In this document: in pieces, positions 17,999 through 63,883 of the stretch
Position numbering within the stretch: position 1 is the first letter of the stretch
Layout: the number at the start of each line of letters is the position of its first letter
Assembly (NCBI GenBank): GCA_964452565.1
Contig: CAYVLY010000002.1
Coordinates: 119,166-183,165, forward strand
From: an uncultured Gammaproteobacteria bacterium
GTDB taxonomy: Bacteria > Patescibacteriota > Patescibacteriia > UBA9934
Direction of reading: 5' to 3'
Length of the DNA stretch: 64,000 nucleotides
Position numbers and translations under genes: made by a program
The notes under the pieces: model-generated
Seen by the model: only the letters and a program-made list of their open reading frames with translations
What the model was told of the DNA's origin: nothing
The model's database searches: none

Positions 17999-18406
17999 AT
18001 GACTGTGCGCCAAGCCGCAGAGCACTTCCAAGTCTCCGAACGACTGCTCCGCAAGCTGCTCTCCCAAGGGCGGCTTGACGAAGCCGTCGCTCGGGTAGGC
18101 CGAGCAGTGCGGCTCCATCGGGGCCGTCTTGTGACGGCACTCACTGGACAGGAGGATGCCCATGGCCTGGCTCCAAAAGAGCAAGAGGCTCAACCCGGAC
18201 ACGGGGAAGAAGGAAATCTACTACCGAATCTGTTGGAGAGTGAACGGCAAGAAGCGTACCCGCGGCATCGGGTTCTGCGGGGTGGTGGAGGCCAAGGAGC
18301 TTCTCAAAATCTTCGAGGGCAAGCAGGCCGTCGGCGAGGAGGTGGCTCCGCCGCCGAGTTCCGAGCCTACCTCCGCGGAGCCAGCACTGGTTCCGAAGCT
18401 GGCTGA
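17999..18406 (+). CDS. xis: Excisionase/MerR-like HTH protein (Xis). 3' extent uncertain.
   Basis: MTVRQAAEHFQVSERLLRKLLSQGRLDEAVARVGRAVRLHRGRL is a typical excisionase-family HTH directly upstream of int. The ORF continues about 250 nt into int in another frame. Confidence 0.4.
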   Translation: MTVRQAAEHFQVSERLLRKLLSQGRLDEAVARVGRAVRLHRGRLVTALTGQEDAHGLAPKEQEAQPGHGEEGNLLPNLLESERQEAYPRHRVLRGGGGQGASQNLRGQAGRRRGGGSAAEFRAYLRGASTGSEAG

Positions 18407-19367
18407 CTACCTGGATGACGTGTTCCTGCCTGTTGTGCAGCGCGACAAGGCGCCCAAGACCTACGCCGGAGCCTGCCGGGCAGCCAATGCGCTCAAGCCC
18501 ATCCTTGGCCAGTTGCAGCTCGACCAGATCAACTTCGCCGCCGCCGATGCCTATGTGACCGAGCGGAAGAAGCTTGGCCGGAGGTCGAGGACCATCATCC
18601 TGGAGCTGCGCTACCTGCGCCAAGCCCTGCAGCACGCCCACGCCTGCGAAGTCATCCGCCAGGTGCCGGAGCTGCCCAGGATTGCCGACCGTGACCGTAA
18701 GCCCCACAAGTTCCTCACCGAAGAGGAGTCTGAGCGCCTGTTGGATGCCCTACGCCCCCTGGACGAGCAGCCCCACCGGGTCACCCGTGGGAGGCCACCC
18801 ATCACCAGGGACCAGCTCACCTACCTGGTGGTGCTGATGGCTCTCAACGCCGGTCTACGCAAGAGCGAGATCCTGACCCGCGGCTGGGAGGATATCCACT
18901 GGCAGCAGGGGCCTCTGGGCACCATCATCATCAGCCACAAGCCCGAGGTGGGTTTCGTGGTGAAGAAGGGGCGCGAACGGGCCATCCCGCTCACACCGAA
19001 TCTGCGCCACGCCCTGGAAGACGCCCACGAGGCTGCCGGCAGGCCGTCATCGGGCTGGATCTTCCCCTCGCCGAGGATTCCTGGCCAGCCGCGAAAGAAC
19101 TTCGCCCAAGCCCTGGCTCGGGCCTGCAGGCGAGCAGGGCTGCCGCGCATCCATCCCCACGGCCTGCGCCACACCTGGGCCACCAGGCTTGCCATGCAGG
19201 GGGTAGACCGTCGGACGCTCATGGAGCTGGGCGGCTGGAAGGAGGGCCGGATGCTTGATGAGATCTACGCCCACACCACCGACGCTCACAAGGCCGAGGT
19301 CATGGCGCGCATGGGCATCGGCCGCCATGAGAAGAGCCCCGAGGGTGAGCCGGATGATGAGGAGTAG
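18156..19367 (+). CDS. int: Phage-type tyrosine integrase
   Basis: N-terminal arm-binding-type segment (AWLQKSKRLNPDTGKKEIYYRICWRVNGKKRTRG). C-terminal catalytic HGLRHTWATRL...LGGWKEGRMLDEIYAH (R..HxxR..Y). Confidence 0.9.
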   Translation: MPMAWLQKSKRLNPDTGKKEIYYRICWRVNGKKRTRGIGFCGVVEAKELLKIFEGKQAVGEEVAPPPSSEPTSAEPALVPKLADYLDDVFLPVVQRDKAPKTYAGACRAANALKPILGQLQLDQINFAAADAYVTERKKLGRRSRTIILELRYLRQALQHAHACEVIRQVPELPRIADRDRKPHKFLTEEESERLLDALRPLDEQPHRVTRGRPPITRDQLTYLVVLMALNAGLRKSEILTRGWEDIHWQQGPLGTIIISHKPEVGFVVKKGRERAIPLTPNLRHALEDAHEAAGRPSSGWIFPSPRIPGQPRKNFAQALARACRRAGLPRIHPHGLRHTWATRLAMQGVDRRTLMELGGWKEGRMLDEIYAHTTDAHKAEVMARMGIGRHEKSPEGEPDDEE

Positions 19368-21484: not shown

Positions 21485-21760
21485 AAGTCATTATCCTTCC
21501 GGGACCGATGACAAAGGACGTGTAGAGCTTCCCCAGCACTCACACTAATTAAACCGATCCCTTGATCCTCCGAGGAGGCTCACCCTTCTTCTTTATTTCA
21601 CAGGGTGTATTTTACAACCGAAATATTCTCGTGCTCTTGAGATAACCAGAGGGGGAAAGAGAGCCATTTACATGTGGTGTATTAGGCGGCGATGCCTTTA
21701 CTTATTCCACGGTCTCGGCTACGGTGCGAGGTAGAGAATCCTCCCATAGGAGCACTTTCT

Positions 21761-23758
21761 ATGCCGAATCAGATTCGAACTCTGCCAGACGGCAAGATAT
21801 GCGATTTCATTGATGGAACTATCCGTAACGACACGCCGGAGGAATACGTTAGGCAGAATATTGAGAAACGCCTCGTCTTGGAGCTTGGGTATTCACTTGG
21901 CCAGATAGCTGTCGAATTTCCTATTCGCATCGGTAGCCGACGGGCACGGATTGACCTTGCCGTATTCCCGGAAGATGCCGCTCACACACAAGACAACGTG
22001 CATGTCATTGTTGAGTGCAAGCGAGAGTCAGTAGAGCCCACCGATCACAAGAACGGCGTTGAGCAACTCAAGTCCTACATGTCGGCTTGCCCCAACGCTG
22101 CTTGGGGGATGTGGACAAATGGCCGATACAAAGATGTGATTCGAAAGACCGTCTCTGACGGCAGCATCGAGTGGGAATCCCCGAATGATATCCCCGCCAA
22201 GGATGGGGATACAGACCGGTTGGACATGCCGTCCCGTGAAGATCTCACTAACGCAACGGACGACAACCTTCTCTTCTCTTTCAAGACATGTCACAATCAC
22301 ATCTATGTTACCGACGGGCTCCAGAAGCAACCCGCCTTCTTTGAGCTTTTAAAGGTGATCTTCTGTAAGATCCACGACGAGCGAAACGTACCTCATGCCC
22401 TTGAGTTCTACGCAACGGCCGCCGAAAAGGCGAGCAATGATGGTCGGCTGACAGTGGCGCGACGCATCGGCAGAATCTTCGATCGAGTGAAGGCGCGATA
22501 CCCAGCCATCTTTGACGGTGGAGACACAATTGCACTGGAACCACGGTCACTTGCCTATGTAGTTGGCGAGCTACACAAGTACAGCTTCCTGACTACAAAC
22601 ATCGACGTGAAAGGCAAGGCGTATGAAGAGTTAGTCGGTGCGAACTTGCGTGGAGACCGCGGAGAATTCTTCACGCCGCGCAATGTGCAGCGCATGGTTA
22701 TCGAAATGCTTGATGTACAGGTCGATGAGCGTGTTCTTGATCCCGCGTGTGGTACAGGTGGTTTCCTTGTCATTGCAATGAAATTGATAATCGATCAACT
22801 TCGAGAAAAGGCAGGATTCTATGCAGATGAGATGGTCAATCCGGCTGTCTTGCACGCCGTCGACCTGCGCGTGCGAGAGCTTGCAAGGTCTTGTTTCTTT
22901 GGTTTCGACATAAACCCCGACCTCGTCAAGGCGACCAAGATGAACATGGTCATGAACAACGATGGGTCGGGTAACATCTTCAGAGAAAACAGTTTATTGC
23001 ATCCACACCAGTGGTCTGACGGTTTCAAACAGGAACTCGCAGACGCGCTCGGGAAAAAGCCTCTTTCTCTGCGTGGGCCAGGCCACCTTGGTTATTTTGA
23101 CGTCATCGCTACGAATCCCCCTTTTGGCGCCAGACTGCCCATCAAGGACCGCGAAACATTGAGTCAATACGATCTTGGCTATGTGTGGACCGAGACGAAA
23201 ACCGGTTGGCAGAAAACACGCAAACTCCAGTCGTCCATGCCGCCTGAAGTTCTCTTTATCGAACGATGCTGGCAGTTTCTCAAACCTGGCGGCCGAATGG
23301 GCATCGTTTTGCCAGATTCCATTCTGGGCGCGCCTGGACAGCGTTTTGTTCGAGAGTGGATACTTCGCCACTGTCGGCTGATTGCCTCGGTCGATCTTCA
23401 TCCAGATACTTTTCAGCCACGCAACAGCACACACACGTCAGTTCTTGTGCTACAGCGAAAGACTGAAGATGAAATCCGTCGAGAGGAGAAACAAGGGCAG
23501 CTCAACGACTACTCGATCTTCATGGCTCAAGCGAAGGCGATTGGTCACGATAGACGAGGAAAGACTATTTATCGTCGAAATGAAGATGGGGAGATTGTGC
23601 TGGTGCCGCCCCCAGGTTCGGTTTCTACGTTGGAACGTACAGCGGACGGTTCTCCAGTCAGCCGTCCTCTACCAAGGCAGAAAATCAAGGACGATGATTG
23701 TCCTTTCATCTCTCAAGAGTTTCGTACCTGGAAGAAGACGGAGGTACTTGGCTGGTGA
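21761..23758 (+). CDS. N6-adenine DNA methyltransferase (HsdM/Type IIG-like) fused to an N-terminal HsdR-N/PD-(D/E)xK nuclease-like domain
   Basis: RBS AGGAG 9 nt upstream of ATG 21761. N-terminal YVRQNIEKRLV...IDLAVF...VIVECKR (restriction-endonuclease-fold core). FFTPRNVQRMV..LDPACGTGGFL (motif I). NPPFG (motif IV). Confidence 0.8.
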   Translation: MPNQIRTLPDGKICDFIDGTIRNDTPEEYVRQNIEKRLVLELGYSLGQIAVEFPIRIGSRRARIDLAVFPEDAAHTQDNVHVIVECKRESVEPTDHKNGVEQLKSYMSACPNAAWGMWTNGRYKDVIRKTVSDGSIEWESPNDIPAKDGDTDRLDMPSREDLTNATDDNLLFSFKTCHNHIYVTDGLQKQPAFFELLKVIFCKIHDERNVPHALEFYATAAEKASNDGRLTVARRIGRIFDRVKARYPAIFDGGDTIALEPRSLAYVVGELHKYSFLTTNIDVKGKAYEELVGANLRGDRGEFFTPRNVQRMVIEMLDVQVDERVLDPACGTGGFLVIAMKLIIDQLREKAGFYADEMVNPAVLHAVDLRVRELARSCFFGFDINPDLVKATKMNMVMNNDGSGNIFRENSLLHPHQWSDGFKQELADALGKKPLSLRGPGHLGYFDVIATNPPFGARLPIKDRETLSQYDLGYVWTETKTGWQKTRKLQSSMPPEVLFIERCWQFLKPGGRMGIVLPDSILGAPGQRFVREWILRHCRLIASVDLHPDTFQPRNSTHTSVLVLQRKTEDEIRREEKQGQLNDYSIFMAQAKAIGHDRRGKTIYRRNEDGEIVLVPPPGSVSTLERTADGSPVSRPLPRQKIKDDDCPFISQEFRTWKKTEVLGW

Positions 23759-25479
23759 GACCTCAATTTGCCCCAAACACGTCGGAGATTCCAGCAAGGC
23801 CCCGTAGGGACTCTATTGCCACAACGGTTTCACTCAAAGAAGTCGTCACCCAAGGAACACGGTTTGACGCTTCAGCGTACGACATAGAATCACGCAATAC
23901 GCTCACAACGATTGAGTCGTGTGGGCTATGTGTCCTGCCGTTGTTCGGCTCGAAAGGCCTCTGCAAGGAAGCACACAATGCCTTCCGCTTCAGGCGAGTT
24001 TTTGCTTCAGAACAAGGGCTACCGTTCCTGACCAGCGCTGACATCATCAAGATGCGACTGGACTATCGTCGTCATTTGAGTCGATCGCAGACTCCACGAG
24101 TGCGAGAGCTTCTTCTTCAGAAGTGGGATGTCTTAATTTCTTGTTCGGGAACCATTGGAAACGTCGCGCTGGCGGGTCCGGCGGTCGAAGGGTTTGCAGC
24201 GTCACAAGATATCATTCGGCTTCGTGCGACAAATAGTGACATTGCAGGTTACGTTGCGGCTTTCCTGCGTTCTCGCTATGGGAGAGGACTGATTGCGAAT
24301 GCGACCTATGGATCGGTAATAACGCACATTGAACCAGATCACCTATCCAGGATTCCCATCCCTGTACCACGTCCACACCTCATGAACGTCGTTGGCACGC
24401 AGATGAGAGAAGCCGTGCTACTGCGTGAACGAGCAAATCGGCTTCTCGATGACGCGGAAGCCGCCCTGTACGATGTTCTCGGCTTCGAGAGGCTTGATAC
24501 CCGGCACATGCGATCTACCACCATTCGCGCTCGGGAGCTCAATGGCCGCTTCGATGCCAGATACCACGAGCCAGTTGCTATTGCTGCTCTGCGGGATTTG
24601 GAGACATGCCGTTATCCGATATCGACAATTGGCGATGGCGCTGTATGTACTGAGATCCGGCAGGTCACGAGGTTTCGTAAGCGCGTATATGTTGAACGAG
24701 GTGGAATTCCTCTCCTAACAACGCGGCAGCTATTCCAGTACGACCCAGTCAAGATAAGTCACCTTGCAAAAGGCGCGCACGAAAAAGACCTCAAAGAAAT
24801 CGCGCTTGCGCCGAACATGGTAACTGTGAACTGCTCTGGTCGACTCGGCCGAGTGCAGGCAGGCACGCTCGGGCGTGTGCAGATTATCCCCAGATATATG
24901 TCGGAGTGGACTACTTCTCAACATGCACTGCGGCTTGTCGCTGCGCCTGACCTCAACGCAGGCTATCTCTATGCCTGGCTTGCCTCGGCCCACGGCCTTC
25001 GTGTCATTACGCGCCATGCATATGGCTCCGTAGTCGTTCACATTAACCGTCACATGATGGCCGAGGTTCCAATACCTCTCCCAACAAGGGAGAAGCGCAA
25101 CATGATTGGCGATCTTGTACTTCTGGCAAACCGACTGCGCGATGAAGCCTGGCGAAGGGAGCAAACTGCTATCCGGCAAGTTGAGGCTCTCATAGCCCTC
25201 CCCCCAGCTGAACATGATCCGATGGGATTTCGGATGGCTCAACTGGAGGCGGAGGCGAGTGGCGTTTATGCGCAGATAGAAAGTTCGTCTGACGAGCAAG
25301 AGGCATCCCGTCTACGCAGGAGACTTCGGCATCTACAACAAGAGCAGTCGGACCTGATGCAACAGGTCTTCTCCAGCCAGTTCTCACTTCCCCCAGAAGT
25401 TGGAGAGGATGTTATCGCCCTTGCTGACCGAGTACTGCGGGAGTATCGTGCTACTACCACCACGGCTTCAACCAAGTGA
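23698..25479 (+). CDS. hsdS: Type I restriction-modification specificity subunit (HsdS) with two target-recognition domains
   Basis: Duplicated TRD architecture with conserved SGTIGN/NCSGRLGRV-type segments and a central coiled-coil spacer. Alternative GTG start at 23755 overlaps the methyltransferase stop (GTGA). Confidence 0.75.
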   Translation: MSFHLSRVSYLEEDGGTWLVRPQFAPNTSEIPARPRRDSIATTVSLKEVVTQGTRFDASAYDIESRNTLTTIESCGLCVLPLFGSKGLCKEAHNAFRFRRVFASEQGLPFLTSADIIKMRLDYRRHLSRSQTPRVRELLLQKWDVLISCSGTIGNVALAGPAVEGFAASQDIIRLRATNSDIAGYVAAFLRSRYGRGLIANATYGSVITHIEPDHLSRIPIPVPRPHLMNVVGTQMREAVLLRERANRLLDDAEAALYDVLGFERLDTRHMRSTTIRARELNGRFDARYHEPVAIAALRDLETCRYPISTIGDGAVCTEIRQVTRFRKRVYVERGGIPLLTTRQLFQYDPVKISHLAKGAHEKDLKEIALAPNMVTVNCSGRLGRVQAGTLGRVQIIPRYMSEWTTSQHALRLVAAPDLNAGYLYAWLASAHGLRVITRHAYGSVVVHINRHMMAEVPIPLPTREKRNMIGDLVLLANRLRDEAWRREQTAIRQVEALIALPPAEHDPMGFRMAQLEAEASGVYAQIESSSDEQEASRLRRRLRHLQQEQSDLMQQVFSSQFSLPPEVGEDVIALADRVLREYRATTTTASTK

Positions 25480-31735: not shown

Positions 31736-33145
31736 TCAGGCGGCGCGCACCTCCTCTCTCGGCTGGATCTCCCCTGGTCGTCGCCGCAGGCGTCGGGGCT
31801 CCGCGGGTGGCTCGCGCCTGGTGAGGAGCAAGTCGAGGAATGCGCACAGGGAATCCAGGGAGCGGAGGCAGTAGTGGGAGCGCTGTCTCTTGCGGAACTC
31901 CCTGTTCTCTCGCTCTGGGTGGTTGGAGGTCTTGTCGGCGTTGTCGAAATCCAGGTAGTGGGTGAGCCGAGCGAAGAGGCCGTCATTGGACAGATCCGCG
32001 AGCACCAGCTTCATACCAGGGATTCCCTGGAATGCGGGATTGGCGAGGAGGGCCTGTCTGCGCTCCTCTGCCAACTCGTGGGAGTCCGTGCTCGAGCCGA
32101 AGAGCTCGTACATCGCCTCGATGAAGCGGCGGAGCACGCCTAAGGCCGGGCAGAGGCAGAAGGCCTCGTCCAGCATCTTCTGCTCGGCCTCGGTGATGAG
32201 CGGGCGCCCCTTGTCGTCCAGCCCCCCACGCTTGAAGATCAGGAACCGGCAGCGCATCACCTTGCGCCGGTTCTCCCTCTTCCGTTTGTCCAGCCGAGGT
32301 CGTCCCCTCTTCCTTGGGCGGCCACGTTTGCGCTTCTTGGGCTTTGGAAGTTCGTTGTAGGCGGCCCAGAAGGCCTTGGCCAGCTTCCTGTTCGCTCCCA
32401 TGAGGAAGTGGAAGACGCAGCGTTGGTGCTCGGCCTCGGGCCACACCTCTGCGATGATCTCTGGGTAGAGAGAGGAGCCGTCCGTCACCACGATCTGGGG
32501 CATGATGCCCGCCTCTCGCAGCTCCAGGAAAAACTCGCGCACGTCTTGGCCGCAGGGAGAGCCGTCCCCCAGCCGAGAGGAGATCTCCACGCCGTTGAGC
32601 GGATCGGTGGCTCTGATCACGTAGTGGTCGCCTTCGTAGACCTCGTCTACAGCGAGCTGACCGGAGAAGACCGTCACCATCCTCTCCATATGGCTCTGGA
32701 AATCCACCTCGCCCCCAGCTCTGCGGTACCAGCGGAGGACCGTCGTGTCTGCCAGCTTGGGCAGATGGAGCAGGGAGCGGCCCACGGCAGCCGCTCCCTC
32801 AAAGGACAACTTGTGGTCCACGACCAGCGACAGCACGGCGAGGCGAGTGGCGGTCGTATATCGGCTCCGTTCCTCGAATCCTGGAGGCTCAAGACGGAAC
32901 CAGCACTGGCCGCGTGGGCAGTGCTCACAGATGTAGCAGCCGACCTGCACGTACTCCATCGTAGGCCCATCGATGTCGGCCCTCTGGCGTTCCAGCAGGC
33001 GGATTTCGTTCCGCGGAGCTGGGCGACCACATCGAGGGCAGAGTGCGGCCTCTGGGGCGAAGGGGACAGGGTTGAGCTTCTTGGTGGGGAGGGGTATGGT
33101 CTTCATCGGCGCAGGTCCGGTTTGTGGAGCTTGGTAACTACGCAA
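31736..33145 (-). CDS. DDE-type insertion-sequence transposase with an N-terminal zinc ribbon. Family not assigned.
   Basis: CPRCG...CYICEHC zinc ribbon. Acidic residues in a DDE-like arrangement (AVDEVYEGD, IVVTDGSS). Basic KRKRGRPRKRGRPR patch. C-terminal NHPERENREFRKRQR resembles the transposase N..E..N..K/R signature. Confidence 0.6.
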   Translation of the reverse strand: MRSYQAPQTGPAPMKTIPLPTKKLNPVPFAPEAALCPRCGRPAPRNEIRLLERQRADIDGPTMEYVQVGCYICEHCPRGQCWFRLEPPGFEERSRYTTATRLAVLSLVVDHKLSFEGAAAVGRSLLHLPKLADTTVLRWYRRAGGEVDFQSHMERMVTVFSGQLAVDEVYEGDHYVIRATDPLNGVEISSRLGDGSPCGQDVREFFLELREAGIMPQIVVTDGSSLYPEIIAEVWPEAEHQRCVFHFLMGANRKLAKAFWAAYNELPKPKKRKRGRPRKRGRPRLDKRKRENRRKVMRCRFLIFKRGGLDDKGRPLITEAEQKMLDEAFCLCPALGVLRRFIEAMYELFGSSTDSHELAEERRQALLANPAFQGIPGMKLVLADLSNDGLFARLTHYLDFDNADKTSNHPERENREFRKRQRSHYCLRSLDSLCAFLDLLLTRREPPAEPRRLRRRPGEIQPREEVRAA

Positions 33146-36060: not shown

Positions 36061-36137
36061 TGGTGGGCGTGAGAGGACTCGAACCTCTGACCTTCACAAT
36101 GTCAATGTGACACTCTAACCAGCTGAGCTACACGCCC
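36061..36137 (-). tRNA. tRNA-Val (anticodon GAC)
   Basis: Manual fold of the reverse complement: acceptor GGGCGTG/CACGCCC, D-arm GCTCAGCTGGTTAGAGT, anticodon loop TTGACAT, T-arm AGAGGTTCGAGTCCTCT, discriminator A, encoded CCA. Confidence 0.9.
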
Positions 36138-45049: not shown

Positions 45050-46600
45050 TCACCACGTCGGATTGCAATCTACATCTTCTCCATCCTCATCCCTACAATC
45101 CATCAAACCATATCCAGAGGATTCAGAGTTCGCGCAATTTACAATAAGCTCATCTCCAGCAAATCCAGCCGCAGTGGCAAGTGCTGCAACAACTGGAATC
45201 GCTGCACCACCCGTAATAACAATGCCGGGGACCCCTAAGACAGTCACTATGACAGCCGCCTCGCCATCAAGGTCCAACTGAAATACCGCACACTGCTCAC
45301 CTTCTGGCGCCAATCCGCATGGATCATTTATACAAATCTCCTCCAACCAAGGATAGTTCTCATCACCACTCTCAATATCATCGATTGGCTCATACTCTAG
45401 CTCCTGCTCTCCAACGTCCAATAACTCTGGGTCTAAGTATGTAGCAAGAACAAGGTCGTACGCTCGACAACTCTCACTATCCCCATCCTCTGCATCTTGA
45501 CGCAGCTGATCGCAGTCTAGGGAATTGCCCTCTTCTGGATATACAAGCTCTACACAAGCAGTGTATGAAACTCCCAAATCAAACAGACCGGGATCATACT
45601 CACAGTAATAGAGATCATCATCATCTGGCTCAGGATCGCTTGCAAGTAATGACTCACATGCACTGTCACTTGGAGTAACGCCTTGTGAATGCGCAAATCC
45701 ACAACGAACACATTCATAACCAGTAGCACTCTCTGTCGAGCTCATGCAAGTTTCCATTGGATCTTCTGTCTCTCCATCATCTTCATAGCACGTTGACCAT
45801 ATACATTCGGTGCCATCTGTTATCGACGTCTGAACATCTTCAAACCCCTCACGAAATCCATCAACAATACCCGTATCACCGCATGCATCAGTATCCGCGG
45901 TAATATTCAACCCCGCCTCTTCCATAACTTCACAAGTCGAACTTGGATCTAAGAAAACAATGGTTCGAATCTTTGGCGGACTCAATCGATTGAAAGTCGT
46001 GAAGCTTGGATCAACTAGGTTTGCAATCGCATAGGTTGCAAACAGAAGAATAATCCCCACCACTGCATTTTTGATTCGTGTTTTTGCCTTACCAACTTTT
46101 TCTGGCTTTCCACGTGCCAACATGTACTGTAAACCACCAAGCATGATAATTACGATTGCCAGAAGTGATCCAGCGGTTAGTACCCAACTGTATGCAGCGT
46201 TTATGTAATCCCCTAAACTGTCAGACTCAGTAAAACTTCCAATGGCAACGTTAAGGCTAACTGCCTCAGGTTCTGAATAGCAGCGACCCTCACCCGGTAA
46301 ACAGTTTGTTGCCTGTCCTTCCCACTCGCCTTCGAGTTCACCAGTCTCAGTTGATGTCTCACACTCATACTGAGTCCAACACATTGTATTGTATTGCGGC
46401 TCAAGATCACTCTGATCTTCTGTGTAACATCCAAGGTAATCATCACAGGCGTCCTGGCAGGCTGCCACATCTTCTGACTCTCCATTTTCATATGCACCCC
46501 CACTCGACTCGCACCAACAGGCACAGGTATCTGCCAAAACAAAAGATGGCAGAACACAGAACGCGGAAAGCAGAATAAATAAAACTAACAAACGTTTCAT
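45050..46600 (-). CDS. Large Cys-rich acidic secreted/membrane protein
   Basis: Signal peptide MKRLLVLFILLSAFCVLPSFVLA. Two central TM helices. Many Cys and Asp/Glu residues. Confidence 0.6.
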   Translation of the reverse strand: MKRLLVLFILLSAFCVLPSFVLADTCACWCESSGGAYENGESEDVAACQDACDDYLGCYTEDQSDLEPQYNTMCWTQYECETSTETGELEGEWEGQATNCLPGEGRCYSEPEAVSLNVAIGSFTESDSLGDYINAAYSWVLTAGSLLAIVIIMLGGLQYMLARGKPEKVGKAKTRIKNAVVGIILLFATYAIANLVDPSFTTFNRLSPPKIRTIVFLDPSSTCEVMEEAGLNITADTDACGDTGIVDGFREGFEDVQTSITDGTECIWSTCYEDDGETEDPMETCMSSTESATGYECVRCGFAHSQGVTPSDSACESLLASDPEPDDDDLYYCEYDPGLFDLGVSYTACVELVYPEEGNSLDCDQLRQDAEDGDSESCRAYDLVLATYLDPELLDVGEQELEYEPIDDIESGDENYPWLEEICINDPCGLAPEGEQCAVFQLDLDGEAAVIVTVLGVPGIVITGGAAIPVVAALATAAGFAGDELIVNCANSESSGYGLMDCRDEDGEDVDCNPTW

Positions 46601-46690
46601 ACAGCTATATTGTAGCATGAAAGAGACATGATCATATGCTATACTGTGAGCATTGACGCATAAGGCTAATCCTGCTAGGATCTTACCGTT

Positions 46691-51008: not shown

Positions 51009-51989
51009 ATGCGAGTCCTAACTGGAATACAACCTACAAATATTCTTCATATCGGAAACCTATTTGGTGCTTTAATCCCTGCTGTTGAGCTTCAGAAAGA
51101 TCATGAGCTCTACATGATGATTGCTGACTATCATTCTATAACTGTACCGCAAAATCCTGAGATGCTGAGTGAGAGCATCCTTCTTAACGCTGCAGCCTAT
51201 ATTGCTGCTGGTATCGATCCAACCAAGACTGTACTTTTTCAGCAGTCTCAGATTCCTGCACATACTGAGCTTGCATGGATCCTTGCAAGCCAAACCCACA
51301 TGGGTGAGATGAAAAGGATGACTCAGTTTAAAGACAAGTCTGGTGATAAAGCTGATAAAGTTTCTGTTGGGCTATTTACCTATCCTGTTTTAATGGCTGC
51401 GGATATTCTGCTGTATGACACAGAGGCAGTACCTGTTGGACATGATCAAAAGCAGCATGTTGAGCTGACCCGCGACGTTGGTCAGAGGTTTAACAATGCT
51501 TATGGCGAAACGTTTGTAATTCCAAAACCAATGATTCGCAAACATGGAGCGCGACTTAAGTCTTTGACAGAGCCTGAGAAAAAGATGAGTAAGAGTGCAC
51601 CGAGTGCGAAGAGCTATATTTCATTGATGGACGACCGCGAAATTGTTCACAAGAAAATACGATCTGCCGTGACAGACTCAGGGCAATTGATTACATTTGA
51701 GGAACGGCGTGAAGGACTTTATAACCTGCTTACGATATTTAGTTTGTGCACTGGAAAGTCCGGTGAAGATCTGGCACATGAGTATGCAGAAAAAGGCATG
51801 AAGGTCCTTAAGGACGATCTTGCTGAAGCGCTTTCGAACTATCTAGATCCGATGCAGAGCAAGATGAAGGAACTACTTGAAAACAAAGATGAACTCAAAC
51901 GCATCATCGCGAACGGATCTACAGCCGCTGATAAGGTGGCGAACGCGAAGTTGGCGGAAGTGAAAAAGAAGGTGGGGGTAACGTTATAG
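51009..51989 (+). CDS. trpS: Tryptophanyl-tRNA synthetase
   Basis: HIGH-type motif (ILHIGNLFGA), KMSKS present, 326 aa class I layout. Confidence 0.9.
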   Translation: MRVLTGIQPTNILHIGNLFGALIPAVELQKDHELYMMIADYHSITVPQNPEMLSESILLNAAAYIAAGIDPTKTVLFQQSQIPAHTELAWILASQTHMGEMKRMTQFKDKSGDKADKVSVGLFTYPVLMAADILLYDTEAVPVGHDQKQHVELTRDVGQRFNNAYGETFVIPKPMIRKHGARLKSLTEPEKKMSKSAPSAKSYISLMDDREIVHKKIRSAVTDSGQLITFEERREGLYNLLTIFSLCTGKSGEDLAHEYAEKGMKVLKDDLAEALSNYLDPMQSKMKELLENKDELKRIIANGSTAADKVANAKLAEVKKKVGVTL

Positions 51990-52025
51990 CAGAAAGCAGA
52001 ACACAGAACTCAGAACGCAGATCAA

Positions 52026-52049
52026 GAACCGCCAAACGGCGGTTCTCTT
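52026..52049 (+). terminator. Rho-independent terminator after trpS
   Basis: GAACCGCC-aaac-GGCGGTTC followed by TCTT. Confidence 0.5.
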
Positions 52050-52433
52050 AAATACACGCCTAAGTCCCAAGCCAATTTTCTAGTCTCGACCTCAGGCCTG
52101 CCACGAGCACGTTCATGCTTATCCCCGGGCAGAAAGATGGAATAGCATTTTGATGTCCAGTTTCTCCTTAGATAAAAATTGGATCTCCAAAATGCCCGTC
52201 TGTATGCCTGGGGTATGCATGGACAGCGCAGTGAGGCCAAGCAGTTTCTTTTCCCCATTTCTTTGCTGCTTCAAAGAAATGGGGCCAGGGGTTAGGGGCA
52301 GGATGCCCCATCAATGGGGTTGACTTTCTTGGCCAATCCTGCTATATTCTCTCCGTCAAGTGCATCCTGCGCCTCTGACGCTGAGACAGCCCTCCTAAGC
52401 TGAAACTGAAAAACACATGGAGTGAAACCACAC

Positions 52434-52862
52434 ATGTCCGCAGTCCTCCTCGTCTCCCCGCCCAGCTCGAGTCCCACCCCCGGCAGTCCCCTGCCCGACA
52501 CGAGCGCCACACCCCCGTCCGAACAGCCCGTCATCTCAGATGAGCACCGTCGAGTCCTCCAGCATCTGGTCGCCATCGAGTTCGAGATCCCGAACCTGGT
52601 CGACCGCGAAACCATCGCTACCCTCGAGAACGCCGGACAGGTCTGCGACGCTGTAGCCTCCGCGCTCGCCGAGCACTGCGAAGTGACTCACGACGAGCTC
52701 GGGAGCACCTTCCAGACCATCGCCCGGATGAGCATGCTCAACGTGAACATCATGATCCGCATGGCCAAGGCTACCACCTGGCGCGAGTTCTGCAGCGCGA
52801 TCCCGCAGTGCTACCGCCAGGCCTGCGGCAACGCAGTGGTCGCCGGCGCCAGGATCACCTAG
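52434..52862 (+). CDS. Hypothetical high-GC protein (about 143 aa) with a Pro/Ser-rich N-terminus
   Basis: Roughly 62% GC patch (52280..52920) inside low-GC host DNA. RBS GGAGTG before ATG 52434. Directly upstream of the RNase P RNA gene. Confidence 0.4.
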   Translation: MSAVLLVSPPSSSPTPGSPLPDTSATPPSEQPVISDEHRRVLQHLVAIEFEIPNLVDRETIATLENAGQVCDAVASALAEHCEVTHDELGSTFQTIARMSMLNVNIMIRMAKATTWREFCSAIPQCYRQACGNAVVAGARIT

Positions 52863-52968
52863 TCCCGTTCTGACTACGCCCACTTGGGTAACGGTCAGCC
52901 CCGTCCCTCCGGACACCTGTTCCGGGGGGCCTTTGTTTCTATTGACATATTCGGCTAATAATGGTATT

Positions 52969-53395
52969 ATTCTGTCGTTCAGGAAATACGATAGTCGCTT
53001 GACGCTTTGCGTCATGAGGAAAGTCCGAACACCCCCTGCACGGTAACGTGCATGGACAAAGGATGTTGCTAACAGCAACCAAGGGATCAGAACGGGAGGA
53101 ACTGGAATATTGTTCCTGCCAGTCTGATTAACCTTAGGGAAAGTGCCACAGAGACAATACTAGCTCTTCGGAGTTAAAGGTGAAAAGTAGTGCGGTGTCT
53201 GAGGTCAGATGACCTCGATAGGCTACGCACTTCGCTCCATGGTGACATGGAAGCGTGGTAAACCCATCCTGGTGCAAGAGCAAATTTGGTCGCTCGCATG
53301 AAGTGATTGGCAACAATCACTCTAGATAAATGACTATCATCTTATGTCGCCCTACGGGCTATATCAGATACAGAATTCGGCTTACCATTTCCTGA
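52969..53395 (+). ncRNA. rnpB: RNase P RNA (bacterial type A-like)
   Basis: P4 strand AGGAAAGTCCG. GTGAAAAGTAGTGCGGT and GGTAAACCC...GCAAGAGCAAATTTGG conserved blocks. P1 pairing TCAGGAAAT/ATTTCCTGA defines the ends. Confidence 0.6.
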
Positions 53396-53406
53396 GCAAC
53401 AAAGAT

Positions 53407-53429
53407 CACCGCAATGAGCGGTGTTTTTT
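53407..53429 (+). terminator. Rho-independent terminator after rnpB
   Basis: CACCGC-aatga-GCGGTG followed by TTTTTT. Confidence 0.6.
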
Positions 53430-56787: not shown

Positions 56788-57966
56788 ATGCATTTGGCGA
56801 TCGACATAAGGCATTTAGCAGCTGATCAACACTCAGGCATAGGACGTTACACGATCGAAATAATAAAGCGCATGACAAAGATGGCGCCAGATGATTATTT
56901 TACACTTTTTGCAGCAGGATCTTCAGAAACACTTGCGAAACTCCCAAAATTCTCTGGAAGAAATATAGAACTTATCAAAGAAGAAACGCCAAATAGAGCA
57001 CTTTCCGCAAAGCTTCACTTCACAGCCCACACACTTGAAGACTTCTTACCAAAGCAACCTGATCTTTGGTTTTTCCCAAACATCAATATCATCAAAACAC
57101 ACAGGCCATACGTGATAACAATGCATGACCTTTCTTTTGAGCTCTTCCCTAGATTCTTCAGGATAAAAGATCGCATCTGGCACAGGGCTGCAGCACCTCA
57201 ATCACTAGCAGAACACGCGGAGCTAATCTTTGCGGTTTCGGAAAATACAAAGCATAACCTTAGTGCCCTCTGGGGCATTGGTGAGGATAGCATTGTATCT
57301 ACCCCGCTTGGAGTTGACGATCGTTTTGAAACCAAGGAGCAACCATGCGACAAGAATTATCTGCAATCGCACAGTATTGATTATCCGTATATTTTAAGCC
57401 TTTGCACGCTTGAACCGCGCAAGAACATTGAAACCATTGTAGAAGCATACGAAATTTGGCGGGAACAGAACACAGAACACAGAACCCAGCCGAAGGCCCT
57501 GAGCCTGTCGAAGGGAACACAGAACACAGAACCCCACTTAGTTATTGCTGGAGGTCGCGGGTGGAAGAATGATTACCTTCACAAACGTATTCGATCCTCA
57601 AGGTACTCATCAGACATTCATGTTCTGGGGTATATTAAGGAAAATCACAAACCAACACTATATAGACACGCAGAGCTATTCTTGTTCCCATCGTTTTTTG
57701 AAGGATTTGGTCTGCCAATTGTTGAAGCTATGGCAAGTGGGACCCAGGTGATTACAAGTTTTACTGGATCTATGCAGGAGGTCGGCAAAGAGCATGTGAT
57801 CTTCGTGGATCCATACAACGTACACGACCTGGTGCATGCTATCGATGTTGGTTTAAAAACAGATCACAACCTTGGACCACATATCCCATCTATTTTCTCC
57901 TGGAACGCTGCCGCAATGCGTACACTGATGTCGATCAAGGCATTGGAAAAAGAGGCTGTAGAGTAA
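56788..57966 (+). CDS. Family 4 glycosyltransferase carrying an in-frame 45-bp repeat insertion
   Basis: FEGFGLPIVEAMASGTQVITS GT4 motif. Residues EQNTEHRTQPKALSLSKGTQNTEP are encoded by the repeat at 57479..57523. Confidence 0.85.
   Translation: MHLAIDIRHLAADQHSGIGRYTIEIIKRMTKMAPDDYFTLFAAGSSETLAKLPKFSGRNIELIKEETPNRALSAKLHFTAHTLEDFLPKQPDLWFFPNINIIKTHRPYVITMHDLSFELFPRFFRIKDRIWHRAAAPQSLAEHAELIFAVSENTKHNLSALWGIGEDSIVSTPLGVDDRFETKEQPCDKNYLQSHSIDYPYILSLCTLEPRKNIETIVEAYEIWREQNTEHRTQPKALSLSKGTQNTEPHLVIAGGRGWKNDYLHKRIRSSRYSSDIHVLGYIKENHKPTLYRHAELFLFPSFFEGFGLPIVEAMASGTQVITSFTGSMQEVGKEHVIFVDPYNVHDLVHAIDVGLKTDHNLGPHIPSIFSWNAAAMRTLMSIKALEKEAVE
57479..57523. repeat. 45-bp repeat (copy of 40279..40323) embedded in-frame in the glycosyltransferase coding sequence
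   Basis: 44 of 45 identical. Flanked on both sides by GGGAACA(GAACA)CAGAACACAGAACCC short tandem repeats. Confidence 0.85.
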
Positions 57967-61918: not shown

Positions 61919-63883
61919 ATGGGGGAGGTCCATAAGAACTCGATCGGATACAAACATATGACACCGAAGGAATCCAAGAAAAAAACAAAAAAACACTCGT
62001 CAAAAGCGCATGAAAAAAAGCATGCGCCTCATGAGCCTCACACAGACAGAACACAGAAGCATGAAAAAACTCATGAGCATATAAAGCATGAGCGGCACCC
62101 ACATAAGGAAGATAAGGAGCTCATGATGGATGAGGGGCTGGAAGCAATCTATGGCGACGGTGCAATCGACTTTGAAAAACTAGACCGTGGCGGAAATCGA
62201 CTTACGAAAATCCTCATCGCAGCTGTAATCGTTTTAGCAGTCCTTGCCGTAACTGCTTGGGCTGGGTTTTTTGTCTATACCAAGTTCTTCGAGGTGTCGC
62301 ATGATAAAAACTTTGAACTTGAAATTCTAATGGATGAAGAGCTAACCAGTGGGCAGACAACGCAGATCGAAATTCAATACGCAAACCCAACCACTGTCCC
62401 GATTGCTTCACTTGAGCTTGACGTAAACCTCCCTTCCACATTCCGTGTCTACTCGTTTAGCGAAGATCCAACAAACCTGGATGACCTGATTTGGGAGATG
62501 GGTTCCCTACCTGGAATCACCGACAACATAATAACTATTGAGGGTGTGTGGGTCGCAGAAGCTCCGTCTGAGACTCCTGTGCAGGTCTATGCGAACTACA
62601 AGCCCGGGAACTTTAACTCTACTTTTGAAGATATTGCCGTTGTATACGTCACAACACTTGAGAGCACACTGACAGCGCTCATCGAGGGCCCTGAGGAAGC
62701 ATCTGCTGGTGAAACACTTGATTACACACTAAGTGTTGAAAATATTGGCGATGAGCCGTTTGAGGACTTGCAGGTGAGTGTTGATCTGCCACAGGGATTT
62801 TACCTTGAAGATAGCGATCCCGAACTTGAAGCAGGTGGCCCTGCAGAGTGGGATATTGACTTTATTGATGCAAAGGAAATAATCGAAATTAGTTTCTCTG
62901 GAACTTTTGCTTCTAACATCGAAGGCTTCCAGTACTTTGATGCTTCTGTCGATTTGGTGACTGAAACACGAGAGATTGAGCAATCTAGCGCACAAGCATA
63001 CACTGATGTCCTACAAAACGATATTAGTGTGCAGCTGGTTGCCAATGGAGTAACCGATGAAACTAGTGTGGACGTCGACAGTAACCTGCGAATCAGCATC
63101 GGACTTGAGAATACTGAAGATACTCCAATCGAGGATCTGTCAGTGCTGCTCGACTTCCAATCTGATGACTCAATCCCGATTGGATGGAGCAACTCTACAC
63201 TTGATAGCGGAACAATAACAAGCGATGGGATCTACTGGACTCTGGATTCGATTGAGCCGGGTGAGAAGATCCTTATTAATACTTCGTTCCCAATAGACTC
63301 TGAGCTTGGAGTGGGCGACGCTGATACATTCCAGGTTGTAGCGTCATCGACCTATGAAGGACGTAAGGTGCTATCATCTCCGATGAGTATTTTGATAAAT
63401 TCAGAAGCAGATTTACAAACATCTATCCGATACTACGAGGATAGCGGTGCAGTGCTTGGAAACGGACCCCTACCGCCACAGGTTGATCAAACCACTACAT
63501 ACAGCGTGATATGGACGATCGACAATAGTCTGCATGATCTTGAAGATGTTACTGTGAGCGCAGATCTTCCCCCACATGTGAGTTGGGCTGGGAACGCAAC
63601 ACATGACCTAGGATCGATAAACTATAATGGCTCTGAACATAGCGTTGCATGGACAGTTGATTCGCTGACGTCTGATCTTTCTAGCATTGAAGGACGGTTC
63701 TCAATTTCGATTACCCCAGATTCTGGTGATGTTGGATCGTTTGTGAAGTTGATCTCTGGATCTGAACTAAAAGCAACTGACTCATCCACTGGCGAATCGC
63801 TGACTAGCTCGACTGATTCACTAACAACCGATCTGGTAGATGATATGTACGCTATTGTAGAGGGAGGGGTTGTTATTGAGTAA
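61919..63883 (+). CDS. Large surface protein with an N-terminal basic region, one TM helix and DUF11-like repeat domains
   Basis: His/Lys-rich N-terminus. TM helix LTKILIAAVIVLAVLAVTAWAGFFVY. Repeated segments of the TLDYTLSVENIGDEPFEDLQVSVDLP type. Confidence 0.65.
   Translation: MGEVHKNSIGYKHMTPKESKKKTKKHSSKAHEKKHAPHEPHTDRTQKHEKTHEHIKHERHPHKEDKELMMDEGLEAIYGDGAIDFEKLDRGGNRLTKILIAAVIVLAVLAVTAWAGFFVYTKFFEVSHDKNFELEILMDEELTSGQTTQIEIQYANPTTVPIASLELDVNLPSTFRVYSFSEDPTNLDDLIWEMGSLPGITDNIITIEGVWVAEAPSETPVQVYANYKPGNFNSTFEDIAVVYVTTLESTLTALIEGPEEASAGETLDYTLSVENIGDEPFEDLQVSVDLPQGFYLEDSDPELEAGGPAEWDIDFIDAKEIIEISFSGTFASNIEGFQYFDASVDLVTETREIEQSSAQAYTDVLQNDISVQLVANGVTDETSVDVDSNLRISIGLENTEDTPIEDLSVLLDFQSDDSIPIGWSNSTLDSGTITSDGIYWTLDSIEPGEKILINTSFPIDSELGVGDADTFQVVASSTYEGRKVLSSPMSILINSEADLQTSIRYYEDSGAVLGNGPLPPQVDQTTTYSVIWTIDNSLHDLEDVTVSADLPPHVSWAGNATHDLGSINYNGSEHSVAWTVDSLTSDLSSIEGRFSISITPDSGDVGSFVKLISGSELKATDSSTGESLTSSTDSLTTDLVDDMYAIVEGGVVIE

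What the first reader, a model, noticed from the sequence alone, without database searches (positions are those of the whole stretch)
52280..53395. High-GC gene directly upstream of the RNase P RNA gene
A roughly 640-bp patch of about 62% GC encodes a 143-aa Pro/Ser-rich protein (52434..52862). It ends about 100 bp before rnpB (52969..53395). Stable RNA genes such as tRNA, tmRNA and rnpB are common integration targets, so this may be a remnant of a second high-GC insertion or a lineage-specific addition.
Basis: partly seen in the sequence, partly recalled or inferred. Interest (0 to 1): 0.5.

Follow-up and report, generated by a model that had tools for sequence, protein, structure and literature searches.

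The report
Persistently GC-rich orphan gene beside rnpB
The GC-rich patch upstream of the RNase P RNA gene is not an insertion scar but a fast-evolving gene, known only from a small group of Candidatus Uhrbacteria, that has stayed extremely GC-rich in AT-leaning genomes for a long time, and no standard mechanism explains this.

Summary
Window 52280-52920 is 62.7% GC in a 44% GC host. It carries a 142-aa ORF (52434-52862, GC3 0.87) that ends 116 bp before rnpB (52979-53399).

The "insertion remnant" reading does not hold. There are no att-like repeats and no integrase. No homologue turned up in phage, plasmid or viral collections.

An exhaustive protein search found only about nine relatives, all from Candidatus Uhrbacteria/Patescibacteria assemblies. 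Wherever the contig reaches far enough, trpS lies upstream. rnpB lies downstream in every such locus except L014.

In every lineage the gene is 62-67% GC (GC3 0.74-0.93) while its neighbours have GC3 0.35-0.44. It has a host-type promoter (also seen at rnpB and secG), a Shine-Dalgarno site and a terminator.

Its similarity ranking follows that of the flanking genes, which argues for vertical descent. It diverges far faster than they do: 40-46% amino-acid identity where the flanks are 88-91%. In near-identical strains it is mosaic and varies in repeat number.

Synonymous sites have turned over (44% of conserved residues use different codons) yet remain G/C, so the composition is actively maintained.

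The predicted fold is confident and all-helical, with no structural relative. The protein's function and the force that keeps it GC-rich are both unresolved.

The parts
52320..52348 (+). Promoter of the GC-rich gene: TTGACT, 17 nt, TATATT with a TG extension. It carries the clade-typical spacer motif TTGAC-N8-CYAAY-N2-TGSTA.
   Evidence: Consensus scan, 10 of 12 matches. The same motif occurs at the rnpB promoter (52942) and the secG promoter (46653): 3 hits against 0.04 expected. It is present upstream of the homologue in L004, L005-L008 and L011 (sequences).
52355..52433 (+). 5' UTR. Conserved elements are GTCAAGTGCA at the predicted start, GCCCTCC (52389-52395), GCTGAAAC (52399-52406) and a Shine-Dalgarno GGAG (52419-52422), 11 nt before the ATG.
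   Evidence: Alignment of the transcription units of the window, L004, L011 and L013 shows these blocks invariant or nearly so. Coordinates read. The transcription start is inferred from the -10 box and was not measured.
52434..52862 (+). Coding sequence of a 142-aa orphan protein. It has a disordered Ser/Pro/Thr-rich N-terminus (1-35) and a Cys-rich all-helical domain (36-140). GC is 65.7% and GC3 0.87. It lacks the 25-45-residue C-terminal tail seen in its closest orthologues.
   Evidence: ORF and composition. Homologues E = 2e-19 to 2e-5. In-phase nucleotide alignments and position-specific conservation (positions 1 and 2 about 0.3 above the composition expectation, position 3 about 0.1-0.15 above). 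AF2 pLDDT 81.7, above 90 for 82 residues. C-terminal comparison.
52905..52939 (+). Intrinsic terminator of the gene: a 9-bp GC-rich stem followed by CCTTTGTTTC.
   Evidence: Terminator scan. An equivalent hairpin lies after the homologue in L004, L011, L013 and L014. It is the only helix in the alignment with compensatory support.
52942..52970 (+). rnpB promoter: TTGACA, 17 nt, TATTAT with a TG extension.
   Evidence: Promoter scan, 11 of 12. Conserved in L004, L006 and L013.
52979..53399 (+). RNase P RNA gene (bacterial class A). It is the fixed downstream neighbour and is not part of the GC-rich unit (47.7% GC).
   Evidence: Rfam RF00010, 174.1 bits, E = 1.7e-54, full length. GC. Terminator at 53407-53423.

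Best explanation
The patch is a complete native transcription unit: host-type promoter, 5' UTR with a Shine-Dalgarno site, a 142-codon CDS and an intrinsic terminator. It encodes a member of a tiny protein family restricted to one subclade of Candidatus Uhrbacteria (Patescibacteria/CPR).

Shown:
- The gene occupies one fixed slot, with trpS upstream wherever the contig extends that far and rnpB downstream in every such locus except L014.
- It descends vertically with its neighbours.
- It evolves about 7-9 times faster than they do at non-synonymous sites.
- Within a species it exists as mosaic alleles with variable copy number of a 52-residue helical module.
- Its high GC is a maintained equilibrium, not a leftover of foreign origin. 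Synonymous sites have been substituted repeatedly between lineages yet stay G/C. Lys is replaced by Arg, and AT-rich-codon amino acids are depleted.

Inferred mechanism:
- A fixation bias towards G/C acts on the whole coding sequence. It is either selection on the nucleotide composition of the gene or mRNA, or GC-biased gene conversion during frequent allelic recombination. It opposes the AT-ward drift that shapes the rest of the genome.
- I lean slightly towards the recombination-linked version, by analogy with the Borrelia vls locus. The two versions are not distinguished here.
- The product is most likely a soluble, cysteine-rich helical-bundle protein under relaxed or diversifying selection. 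Its role would be in an interaction that rewards variation, such as host cell, phage or competitor. That functional guess is weak.
For: Synteny in independent assemblies:
- trpS is upstream in the window, L004, L005-L010 and L014.
- rnpB is downstream in the window, L004, L006-L008, L009, L011 and L013.

Composition: the gene is 62-67% GC with GC3 0.74-0.93 in all nine sequences. The rest of each locus is 41-44% GC, and flanking genes have GC3 0.35-0.44. GC3 is uniformly 0.7-1.0 along the whole CDS. GC falls to host level within 60-120 nt of its ends.

Vertical descent: the ranking of identities matches the flanks.
- Window-L011: 46% for the gene, 91% for Bac_transf.
- Window-L004: 40% against 88%.
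- L009-L014: 52% against 88% (trpS C-terminal fragment).

Rates (Nei-Gojobori):
- Window-L011: gene dN 0.59 and dS 1.1; Bac_transf dN 0.063 and dS 3.3.
- L005-L006: gene dN 0.132 and dS 0.136; flanks dN at most 0.001 and dS 0.005-0.007.

Synonymous turnover: 378 of 858 aligned identical-residue codons differ.

Mosaic alleles: differences between L005 and L006/L008 fall mainly between nt 100 and 450. The 3' 470 nt are identical apart from two sites. One 156-nt module is present once or twice.

Amino-acid shift: K/(K+R) is 0.11-0.45 against about 0.6 in four of five flank sets (0.46 for the single flank gene available in L011). FYMINK is 0.14-0.22 against about 0.32.

Native expression signals.

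Coding frame; AF2 model pLDDT 81.7.

Precedent for a maintained GC-rich variable locus in an AT-rich genome: vls cassettes are 49% G+C against 28.6%, described by the authors as under strong selective pressure (PMC11499132).
Against: - No transcript or protein data exist, so expression is inferred from sequence signals only.
- All relatives were found through the gene itself. I cannot show that close relatives never lack it, and the family's true phylogenetic spread is unknown.
- Against gene conversion as the GC driver: GC3 is just as extreme (0.96-1.0) in the 3' half that barely differs between strains. The boundaries are sharp at the CDS ends. No silent copies exist in the 64-kb window. C-runs are fewer than in shuffles, so there is no G-quadruplex signal. 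The known bacterial gBGC signal is weak (R2 0.03-0.09 in PMC4450053).
- Against mRNA or codon-level selection: no other gene in about 60 kb of host DNA examined shows it, and non-synonymous sites are also shifted.
- dS estimates at these divergences are saturated and composition-biased.
Confidence: 0.72

Rival explanations
1. Un-ameliorated horizontal transfer. A gene from a high-GC donor, possibly related to the 36-kb high-GC island in the same window, was inserted next to rnpB. This happened either recently in this genome or once in the clade ancestor, and it has not yet drifted to host composition.
For: - Composition and codon usage are foreign-like: RSCU correlation is -0.42 with host genes and +0.82 with island genes.
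- The same genome clearly accepts high-GC DNA. The island carries an integrase, a type I RM system and a transposase.
- There is no detectable homologue outside a narrow clade.
Against: - The gene is present at the same slot in at least 7 divergent lineages whose flanking proteins differ by up to 27%.
- Synonymous sites at conserved residues differ in 44% of codons, yet GC3 stays at 0.74-0.93. With flank dS above 2-3, a neutral relic should have decayed most of the way to GC3 of about 0.4. The most divergent lineage has the highest GC3 (0.93).
- The promoter is host-type.
- There are no att repeats.
- No similarity to any island ORF (tblastn).
- No homologue in phages, plasmids, IMG/VR or any high-GC genome in 1.84 billion representatives.
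Confidence: 0.07
2. The GC-richness is maintained by selection on the mRNA or on codon choice rather than by recombination. Candidate pressures include resistance to AU-directed ribonucleases or toxins, a long mRNA half-life, or deliberately atypical decoding that couples its translation to the tRNA pool.
For: - The GC-rich domain coincides with the transcription unit, with sharp drops at both ends.
- GC3 reaches 0.96-1.0 even where alleles do not differ.
- dS is about a third of the flanks', which implies constraint at silent sites.
- The promoter is near-consensus.
- C-ending codons dominate (C3 0.44-0.61). These pair exactly with GNN anticodons; that last point is from general knowledge.
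Against: - No other host gene examined shows the bias.
- G-ending is also preferred in two-fold purine-ending families, and Lys is replaced by Arg. That pattern looks like a general nucleotide pressure, not tRNA matching.
- The tRNA complement of the genome is unknown.
- The mRNA is not unusually structured (z -2.0 and -2.4).
Confidence: 0.3
3. The conserved feature is a structured or regulatory RNA (for example a long leader or processing partner of rnpB), and the open frame is a by-product of high GC.
For: - The unit is always adjacent to, and co-oriented with, rnpB.
- GC above genome average is typical of structural RNAs in AT-rich genomes (general knowledge).
- Alternative frames also give sizeable scores between lineages.
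- Folding z-scores are mildly negative.
Against: - No Rfam match, even at E of 1 or below, apart from one chance microRNA-family hit.
- RNAalifold gives a positive (penalising) covariation term. Only the terminator and a short 5' hairpin are conserved.
- Three-base periodicity is strong, with GC3 0.74-0.93 in one frame in all lineages.
- The ATG, the MS(A/L) N-terminus and the Shine-Dalgarno site are conserved.
- Indels between alleles come in multiples of three.
- The protein profile is significant and the fold is confident.
- A terminator and a separate rnpB promoter lie between the two genes.
Confidence: 0.03
4. It is the variable target of a dedicated diversification system: a diversity-generating retroelement, or a vls/pilE-type cassette gene-conversion system.
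For: - There is a variable block flanked by a conserved 5' end and a 3' end that differs at only two sites, in strains whose neighbouring genes are 99.8-100% identical.
- dN/dS is about 1 there.
- The combination of elevated GC, strand skew and a helical protein recalls vls.
- DGRs are common in CPR bacteria (general knowledge).
Against: - No second copy of any part of the gene (template repeat or silent cassette) exists within the 64-kb window, by blastn or tblastn.
- Allelic differences include a 3-nt indel and runs of adjacent substitutions, not an adenine-only pattern.
- GC skew is modest and opposite in sign to vls (-0.11 to -0.20).
- There is no G-run clustering.
- There is no lipoprotein or signal sequence.
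- The rest of the genome could not be inspected.
Confidence: 0.08

Closest known systems
Borrelia vlsE/vls cassette locus (antigenic variation by segmental gene conversion)
   Same: - It is a variable, alpha-helical protein gene whose G+C is about 20 points above an AT-rich genome.
- It has a consistent strand skew.
- The property is conserved across species despite sequence divergence, and the authors interpret it as actively maintained (PMC11499132).
- The variable block is flanked by conserved ends.
   Different: - No silent cassette array was found in 64 kb.
- The locus is chromosomal, between housekeeping genes, not telomeric on a plasmid.
- The skew is weaker and C-rich on the coding strand.
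- There is no G-run clustering.
- There is no lipoprotein signal.
- Variation has been seen only between strains, not within a clone.
Taxonomically restricted (orphan) fast-evolving genes
   Same: - There is no Pfam, NCBIfam, PHROG, PDB or fold relative.
- Only six genuine clusters match in 1.84 billion representatives.
- dN/dS is 0.5-1.
- The N-terminus is disordered.
   Different: Orphans normally share or approach the host's composition. This one holds GC3 at 0.74-0.93 against a background of 0.35-0.44, across lineages whose silent sites are saturated.
Genomic islets or integrative elements at stable-RNA genes (tRNA, tmRNA)
   Same: Atypical composition immediately beside a stable RNA gene. 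A real island with an integrase lies elsewhere in the window next to tRNA-Val.
   Different: - There is no recombinase and no att duplication.
- It lies upstream of the RNA gene's promoter rather than at its 3' end.
- It is vertically inherited with a host-type promoter.
- It is absent from mobile-element collections.
GC-biased gene conversion hot spots (well documented in mammals and birds; weak genome-wide signal in bacteria, PMC4450053)
   Same: G/C enrichment is local and long-term. It affects silent and replacement sites alike, and it occurs in a gene with signs of recombination.
   Different: - The reported bacterial effect is a slight correlation between recombination rate and GC3 (R2 0.03-0.09). 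It is not a 45-50-point jump confined to one gene.
- The boundaries here coincide with the CDS.

Membership tests
Integrated mobile element remnant at a stable-RNA gene | Recombinase gene or fragment within or beside the insert | tested here: not met
   The only ORFs in 51990-52978 are the 142-aa gene and its shadow frames. There is no Pfam or PHROG hit.
Integrated mobile element remnant at a stable-RNA gene | Direct repeats (att) duplicating part of the target RNA gene at the insert borders | tested here: not met
   Only 10-13-nt two-copy matches, none bracketing the patch. The patch lies 5' of the rnpB promoter.
Integrated mobile element remnant at a stable-RNA gene | Patchy distribution, or copies on phages, plasmids or other genomic contexts | tested here: not met
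   All retrievable homologues sit in the same slot. None is in phages, plasmids or IMG/VR. Relatives lacking the gene could not be sampled independently.
vls/pilE-type cassette gene-conversion locus | One expression site plus silent partial copies that donate sequence | tested here: inconclusive
   No second copy within the 64-kb window (blastn and tblastn) or in 5-12-kb flanks of the related loci. The rest of the genomes was not available.
vls/pilE-type cassette gene-conversion locus | G+C and GC skew far above genome background, with G-runs on one strand | tested here: inconclusive
   G+C is 20 points above background (met). Skew is only -0.11 to -0.20, and C-runs of 3 or more are fewer than in shuffles (not met).
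vls/pilE-type cassette gene-conversion locus | Variable segment bounded by invariant ends | tested here: met
   In L005 versus L006/L008, differences fall mainly between nt 100 and 450. The 5' 100 nt differ at three sites and the 3' 470 nt at two, while the flanks are 99.8-100% identical.
Diversity-generating retroelement target | Nearby template repeat and reverse transcriptase; variation restricted to template adenines | tested here: not met
   There is no repeat of any gene segment in the window. Alleles differ by a 3-nt indel and blocks of adjacent changes. A reverse transcriptase was not specifically searched for outside the locus.
Structured non-coding RNA | Match to a known family, or a conserved structure with covariation | tested here: not met
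   Rfam at gathering and E-value thresholds. RNAalifold covariation term +2.88. z-scores -2.0 and -2.4.
Bacterial RNase P protein (RnpA) | Ribonuclease_P domain; small, strongly basic protein | tested here: not met
   There is no Pfam or NCBIfam hit. pI is 5.1 in the window and ranges from 5.1 to 8.8 across orthologues.
Taxonomically restricted fast-evolving protein-coding gene | Real coding sequence (frame-specific conservation, translation signals), narrow taxonomic range, no detectable relatives | tested here: met
   Translation itself is not testable with these tools.

The most novel reading that the evidence does not exclude
A dedicated, locus-specific mechanism keeps one vertically inherited chromosomal gene at GC3 of about 0.8-1.0 inside a 42-44% GC CPR genome. 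Two candidates are not excluded. The first is targeted GC-biased conversion or hypermutation tied to allele diversification. The second, more radical, is codon usage tuned for expression in a high-GC partner cell of this presumably episymbiotic bacterium. Either would be a new way in which base composition is controlled gene by gene in bacteria.
Probability: 0.12. Interest if true: 0.9.

Novelty: new variant of a known kind. Interest (0 to 1): 0.6.

Why it matters
Atypical base composition is routinely read as evidence of recent horizontal transfer. Here a gene with foreign-looking composition is old, native, natively promoted and vertically inherited. That reading fails for it.

The locus offers a compact natural test for the long-standing question of what sets GC content in bacteria: mutation, selection or biased gene conversion. 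One gene evolves under a G/C-favouring regime a few dozen bases from neighbours that drift the other way, in several lineages that can be compared.

It also flags an uncharacterised, rapidly diversifying protein in CPR bacteria, whose interactions with other cells are poorly understood.

Tried and rejected
- Word-indexed protein search with the window protein found nothing. Only the exhaustive HMMER scan found relatives.
- Two metagenome scans found nothing.
- The 6581-aa hit P0005 aligns only to a repeated beta-type motif. I discarded it as spurious.
- Pfam, PHROG, NCBIfam, PADLOC and PDB sequence searches gave no consistent family. A 17-bit LmuA hit occurs only for the window protein and not for its orthologues. 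I treat it as chance.
- G-quadruplex idea: rejected.
- Duplication of the rnpB promoter as the origin of the gene's promoter: not needed, because secG has the same motif.
- An 11-nt perfect complement between the 3' UTR (52863-52873) and rnpB (53087-53097) is not conserved in other loci, and one such match is roughly what chance would give.
- The antisense ORF 52536-53078, of which a Logan gene caller called a 126-aa part, runs into rnpB. I reject it as the expected open shadow frame of a gene with little A at third positions.
Full report
**1. The observation**

The window falls into two compositional parts. Positions 1 to about 41 kb are 51-68% GC (apart from one 1-kb window at 43%). The rest is about 44% GC. 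Within the low-GC part there is a sharp GC peak at 52.3-52.9 kb.
- 52280-52920 is 62.7% GC, against 44.1% for the surrounding host DNA.
- It contains the ORF 52434-52862 (+), 142 codons plus a stop. GC at codon positions 1/2/3 is 0.61/0.50/0.87, and 61% of third positions are C.
- Eight neighbouring host genes have GC3 of 0.34-0.48.
- Rfam places a full-length class-A RNase P RNA at 52979-53399 (174 bits), 116 bp after the stop codon.
- A near-consensus promoter lies at 52320-52348 and a terminator hairpin at 52905-52929. A second near-consensus promoter at 52942-52970 serves rnpB.
- An independent Logan assembly from run SRR8146441 (L003) is identical from 52282 through the patch, rnpB and the downstream sugar-transferase gene.

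The Pro/Ser richness is confined to the first 35 residues.

**2. Is it an insertion?**

Taken alone, the window invites that reading. The gene's codon usage anticorrelates with host genes (RSCU r = -0.42) and correlates with the genes of the large high-GC island (r = +0.82). That island has a tyrosine integrase, a type I restriction-modification system and a Mutator-family transposase. It ends near tRNA-Val at 36061-36137.

The patch itself shows none of these marks:
- It has no recombinase and no Pfam or PHROG hit.
- It has no bracketing direct repeats.
- It has no similarity to anything else in the window.
- It has no relative in phage, plasmid or IMG/VR collections.

**3. Relatives**

The word-indexed search found nothing. 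An exhaustive HMMER scan of 1.84 billion representative proteins found seven hits. One is a spurious match to a repeat in a giant protein. The six genuine clusters, plus two more alleles found with a profile, come from assemblies labelled Candidatus Uhrbacteria or Patescibacteria, where a label exists.

I recovered the DNA for all of them. Wherever the contig extends far enough, the order is SBP_bac_5, RNase J, trpS, the gene, rnpB, Bac_transf, then glycosyltransferases.
- trpS is upstream in the window, L004, L005-L010 and L014.
- rnpB is downstream in the window, L004, L006-L008, L009, L011 and L013.
- In L014 the 357 nt downstream of the gene show no rnpB match.

In L009 and L011 the rnpB copies score below Rfam's gathering threshold (85 and 93 bits) but have E-values of 1e-26 and 1e-28.

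**4. The composition anomaly is shared**

In all nine sequences the gene is 62-67% GC with GC3 of 0.74-0.93. The remainder of each locus is 41-44% GC, and RNase J, trpS and Bac_transf have GC3 of 0.35-0.44.
- GC3 is high in every 25-codon block from start to stop, reaching 1.0 over 75 codons in L005/L006.
- GC falls to host level within 60-120 nt of the CDS ends.
- Replacement sites are also shifted. K/(K+R) is 0.11-0.45, against about 0.6 in four of five flank sets (0.46 for the single flank gene in L011). FYMINK residues are 14-22% against about 32%, and GARP residues 27-35% against 23-25%.

**5. It is a real, native, vertically inherited gene**

- Nucleotide alignments between lineages are in phase with the ORF.
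- Identity at codon positions 1 and 2 exceeds the composition expectation by about 0.3. Position 3 exceeds it by only about 0.1-0.15.
- The ATG, the N-terminal MS(A/L) residues, a GGAG 8-11 nt upstream and several 5'-UTR blocks are conserved.
- In L005/L006/L008 the annotated start is probably six codons too early. The seventh codon, ATG, has the GGAG 10 nt upstream and gives the conserved 'MSP...' N-terminus.
- The promoter carries a spacer motif, TTGAC-N8-CYAAY-N2-TGSTA, that also occurs at the rnpB and secG promoters. There are 3 hits in the window against 0.04 expected. The motif recurs in the related loci. The gene is therefore wired into the host's own promoter class.
- The ranking of pairwise identities follows the flanks: window-L011 46% against 91%, window-L004 40% against 88%, L009-L014 52% against 88%. 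This argues for vertical descent.

**6. It evolves very fast and is mosaic within species**

Nei-Gojobori estimates:
- Window-L011: gene dN 0.59 and dS 1.1. Bac_transf: dN 0.063 and dS 3.3.
- L005, L006 and L008 come from near-identical strains. RNase J and trpS are 99.8-100% identical in nucleotides, with dS of 0.005-0.007 or less.
- In those same strains the gene shows dN 0.132 and dS 0.136.

The differences fall mainly between nt 100 and 450. They include a 3-nt indel and runs of adjacent changes. The 3' 470 nt are identical apart from two sites.

L008 matches L005 at several sites and L006 at the others. It also carries one copy of a 156-nt (52-residue) module that is present twice in L005 and L006. 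This is the signature of recombination among old, divergent alleles, not of in-place point mutation.

**7. The GC-richness is an equilibrium, not a relic**

At aligned positions where the amino acid is identical between lineages, 378 of 858 codons (44%) are nevertheless different synonymous codons. Silent sites have therefore been substituted many times while GC3 stayed high.

The flanks' silent sites are saturated (dS above 2-3). A neutral foreign gene should by now be most of the way to GC3 of about 0.4. Instead the lineage most divergent from the window (L005-L008) has the highest GC3, at 0.92-0.93.

The gene's dS is about one third of the flanks'. This indicates constraint, or a fixation bias, at silent sites.

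**8. What maintains it**

I could not decide this.

For GC-biased gene conversion:
- There is evident allelic recombination.
- The shift affects all codon positions.

Against it:
- The boundaries are sharp at the CDS ends.
- GC3 is equally extreme in the segment that barely differs between strains.
- There are no donor copies nearby.
- There is no G-run clustering.
- The reported bacterial effect is small (PMC4450053).

For selection on mRNA or codon composition:
- It fits the boundaries and the reduced dS.

Against it:
- It has no precedent at this magnitude.
- It does not explain why no other gene shows the same bias.

A structural-RNA explanation is not supported. There is no Rfam hit, the folding z-scores are only -2.0 and -2.4, and RNAalifold gives a positive covariation term with only the terminator conserved.

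The closest documented analogue is the Borrelia vls locus. [quoted passage not shown] The present gene fails the defining vls features that I could test. No cassette array was found in 64 kb, there is no G-run clustering, and there is no lipoprotein signal.

**9. The protein**

AlphaFold2 with the 7-sequence alignment gives a confident model: mean pLDDT 81.7, with 82 residues above 90. The N-terminus (1-35) is disordered and eight helices span residues 36-140.

The protein is cysteine-rich: 3-8 Cys per protein against about 0.3% in the flanks. Its pI varies from 5.1 to 8.8. I saw no signal peptide or hydrophobic span in the sequence; this was not tested with a dedicated tool.

The window's allele lacks the 25-45-residue C-terminal tail, with its 'HC' motif, found in its closest orthologues.

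Function is unknown. The combination of rapid, near-neutral-to-diversifying evolution, allelic mosaicism and module copy-number variation suggests an interaction surface exposed to an arms race. This is inference only.

**10. Verdict**

What is actually there is an orphan, natively expressed, vertically inherited and hyper-divergent gene. Its foreign-looking GC content has been held for a long time by an unidentified force.

The main limits are these:
- The relatives were ascertained through the gene itself.
- No expression data exist.
- There was no whole-genome view of any carrier.

Noticed in passing
window 1-36137: There is a large high-GC region (58% overall). It carries a tyrosine integrase (18156-19367), a type I restriction-modification methylase and specificity subunit (21692-25479) and a Mutator-family transposase (31736-33145, minus strand). 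It ends next to tRNA-Val(GAC) at 36061-36137. Most of its large ORFs have no Pfam hit. A 20.8-kb Logan contig (L001) ends at window 52118, so by its length it should start near 31.3 kb and cross the island/host junction in an independent assembly. Only its last 11 kb were fetched.
   Followed up: partly
window 46543-46575, 51989-52022, 57465-57491, 57513-57532, 62047-62065: Short tandem arrays of a heptamer, (N)CAGAAC repeated 3-5 times, all on the + strand of the low-GC part. The pattern gives 10 hits against 0.26 expected. One array sits immediately after the trpS stop codon and is also present after trpS in L004. Function unknown.
   Followed up: partly
window 46653-46677, 52320-52344, 52942-52966: The secG, orphan-gene and rnpB promoters share an extended motif, TTGAC-N8-CYAAY-N2-TGSTA. 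There are 3 hits against 0.04 expected, and it recurs in the related loci. It may define a class of strong promoters in this lineage.
   Followed up: partly
window 52060-52300: About 200 bp between the trpS hairpin and the orphan gene's promoter have no counterpart in the seven related loci with an intergenic region. The stretch includes a perfect 13-bp-stem hairpin (52253-52265 and 52272-52284). Logan contigs of the same population stop at 52083 and 52118 and resume at 52282. This suggests a palindrome-induced assembly break, strain heterogeneity, or both.
   Followed up: partly
L006 6048-6626, L008 4862-5440, L009 5763-6125, L011 1421-1777: RNase P RNA length and score vary strongly within the clade. 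It is 421 nt and 174 bits in the window and 579 nt and 121 bits in L006/L008. The copies in L009 and L011 fall below Rfam's gathering score (85 and 93 bits). This implies lineage-specific insertions in the ribozyme.
   Followed up: no
window 52863-52873 and 53087-53097: There is an 11-nt perfect complement between the first bases after the orphan gene's stop codon and an internal segment of rnpB. It is not conserved in the other loci, and about one such match is expected by chance in this stretch.
   Followed up: yes
L005/L006/L008 gene starts (for example L006 5001 versus 5019): The deposited annotations probably start six codons too early ('MQEFYQ'). The seventh codon, ATG, is preceded by GGAG at 10 nt and gives the conserved 'MSP...' N-terminus seen in the other lineages.
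   Followed up: partly
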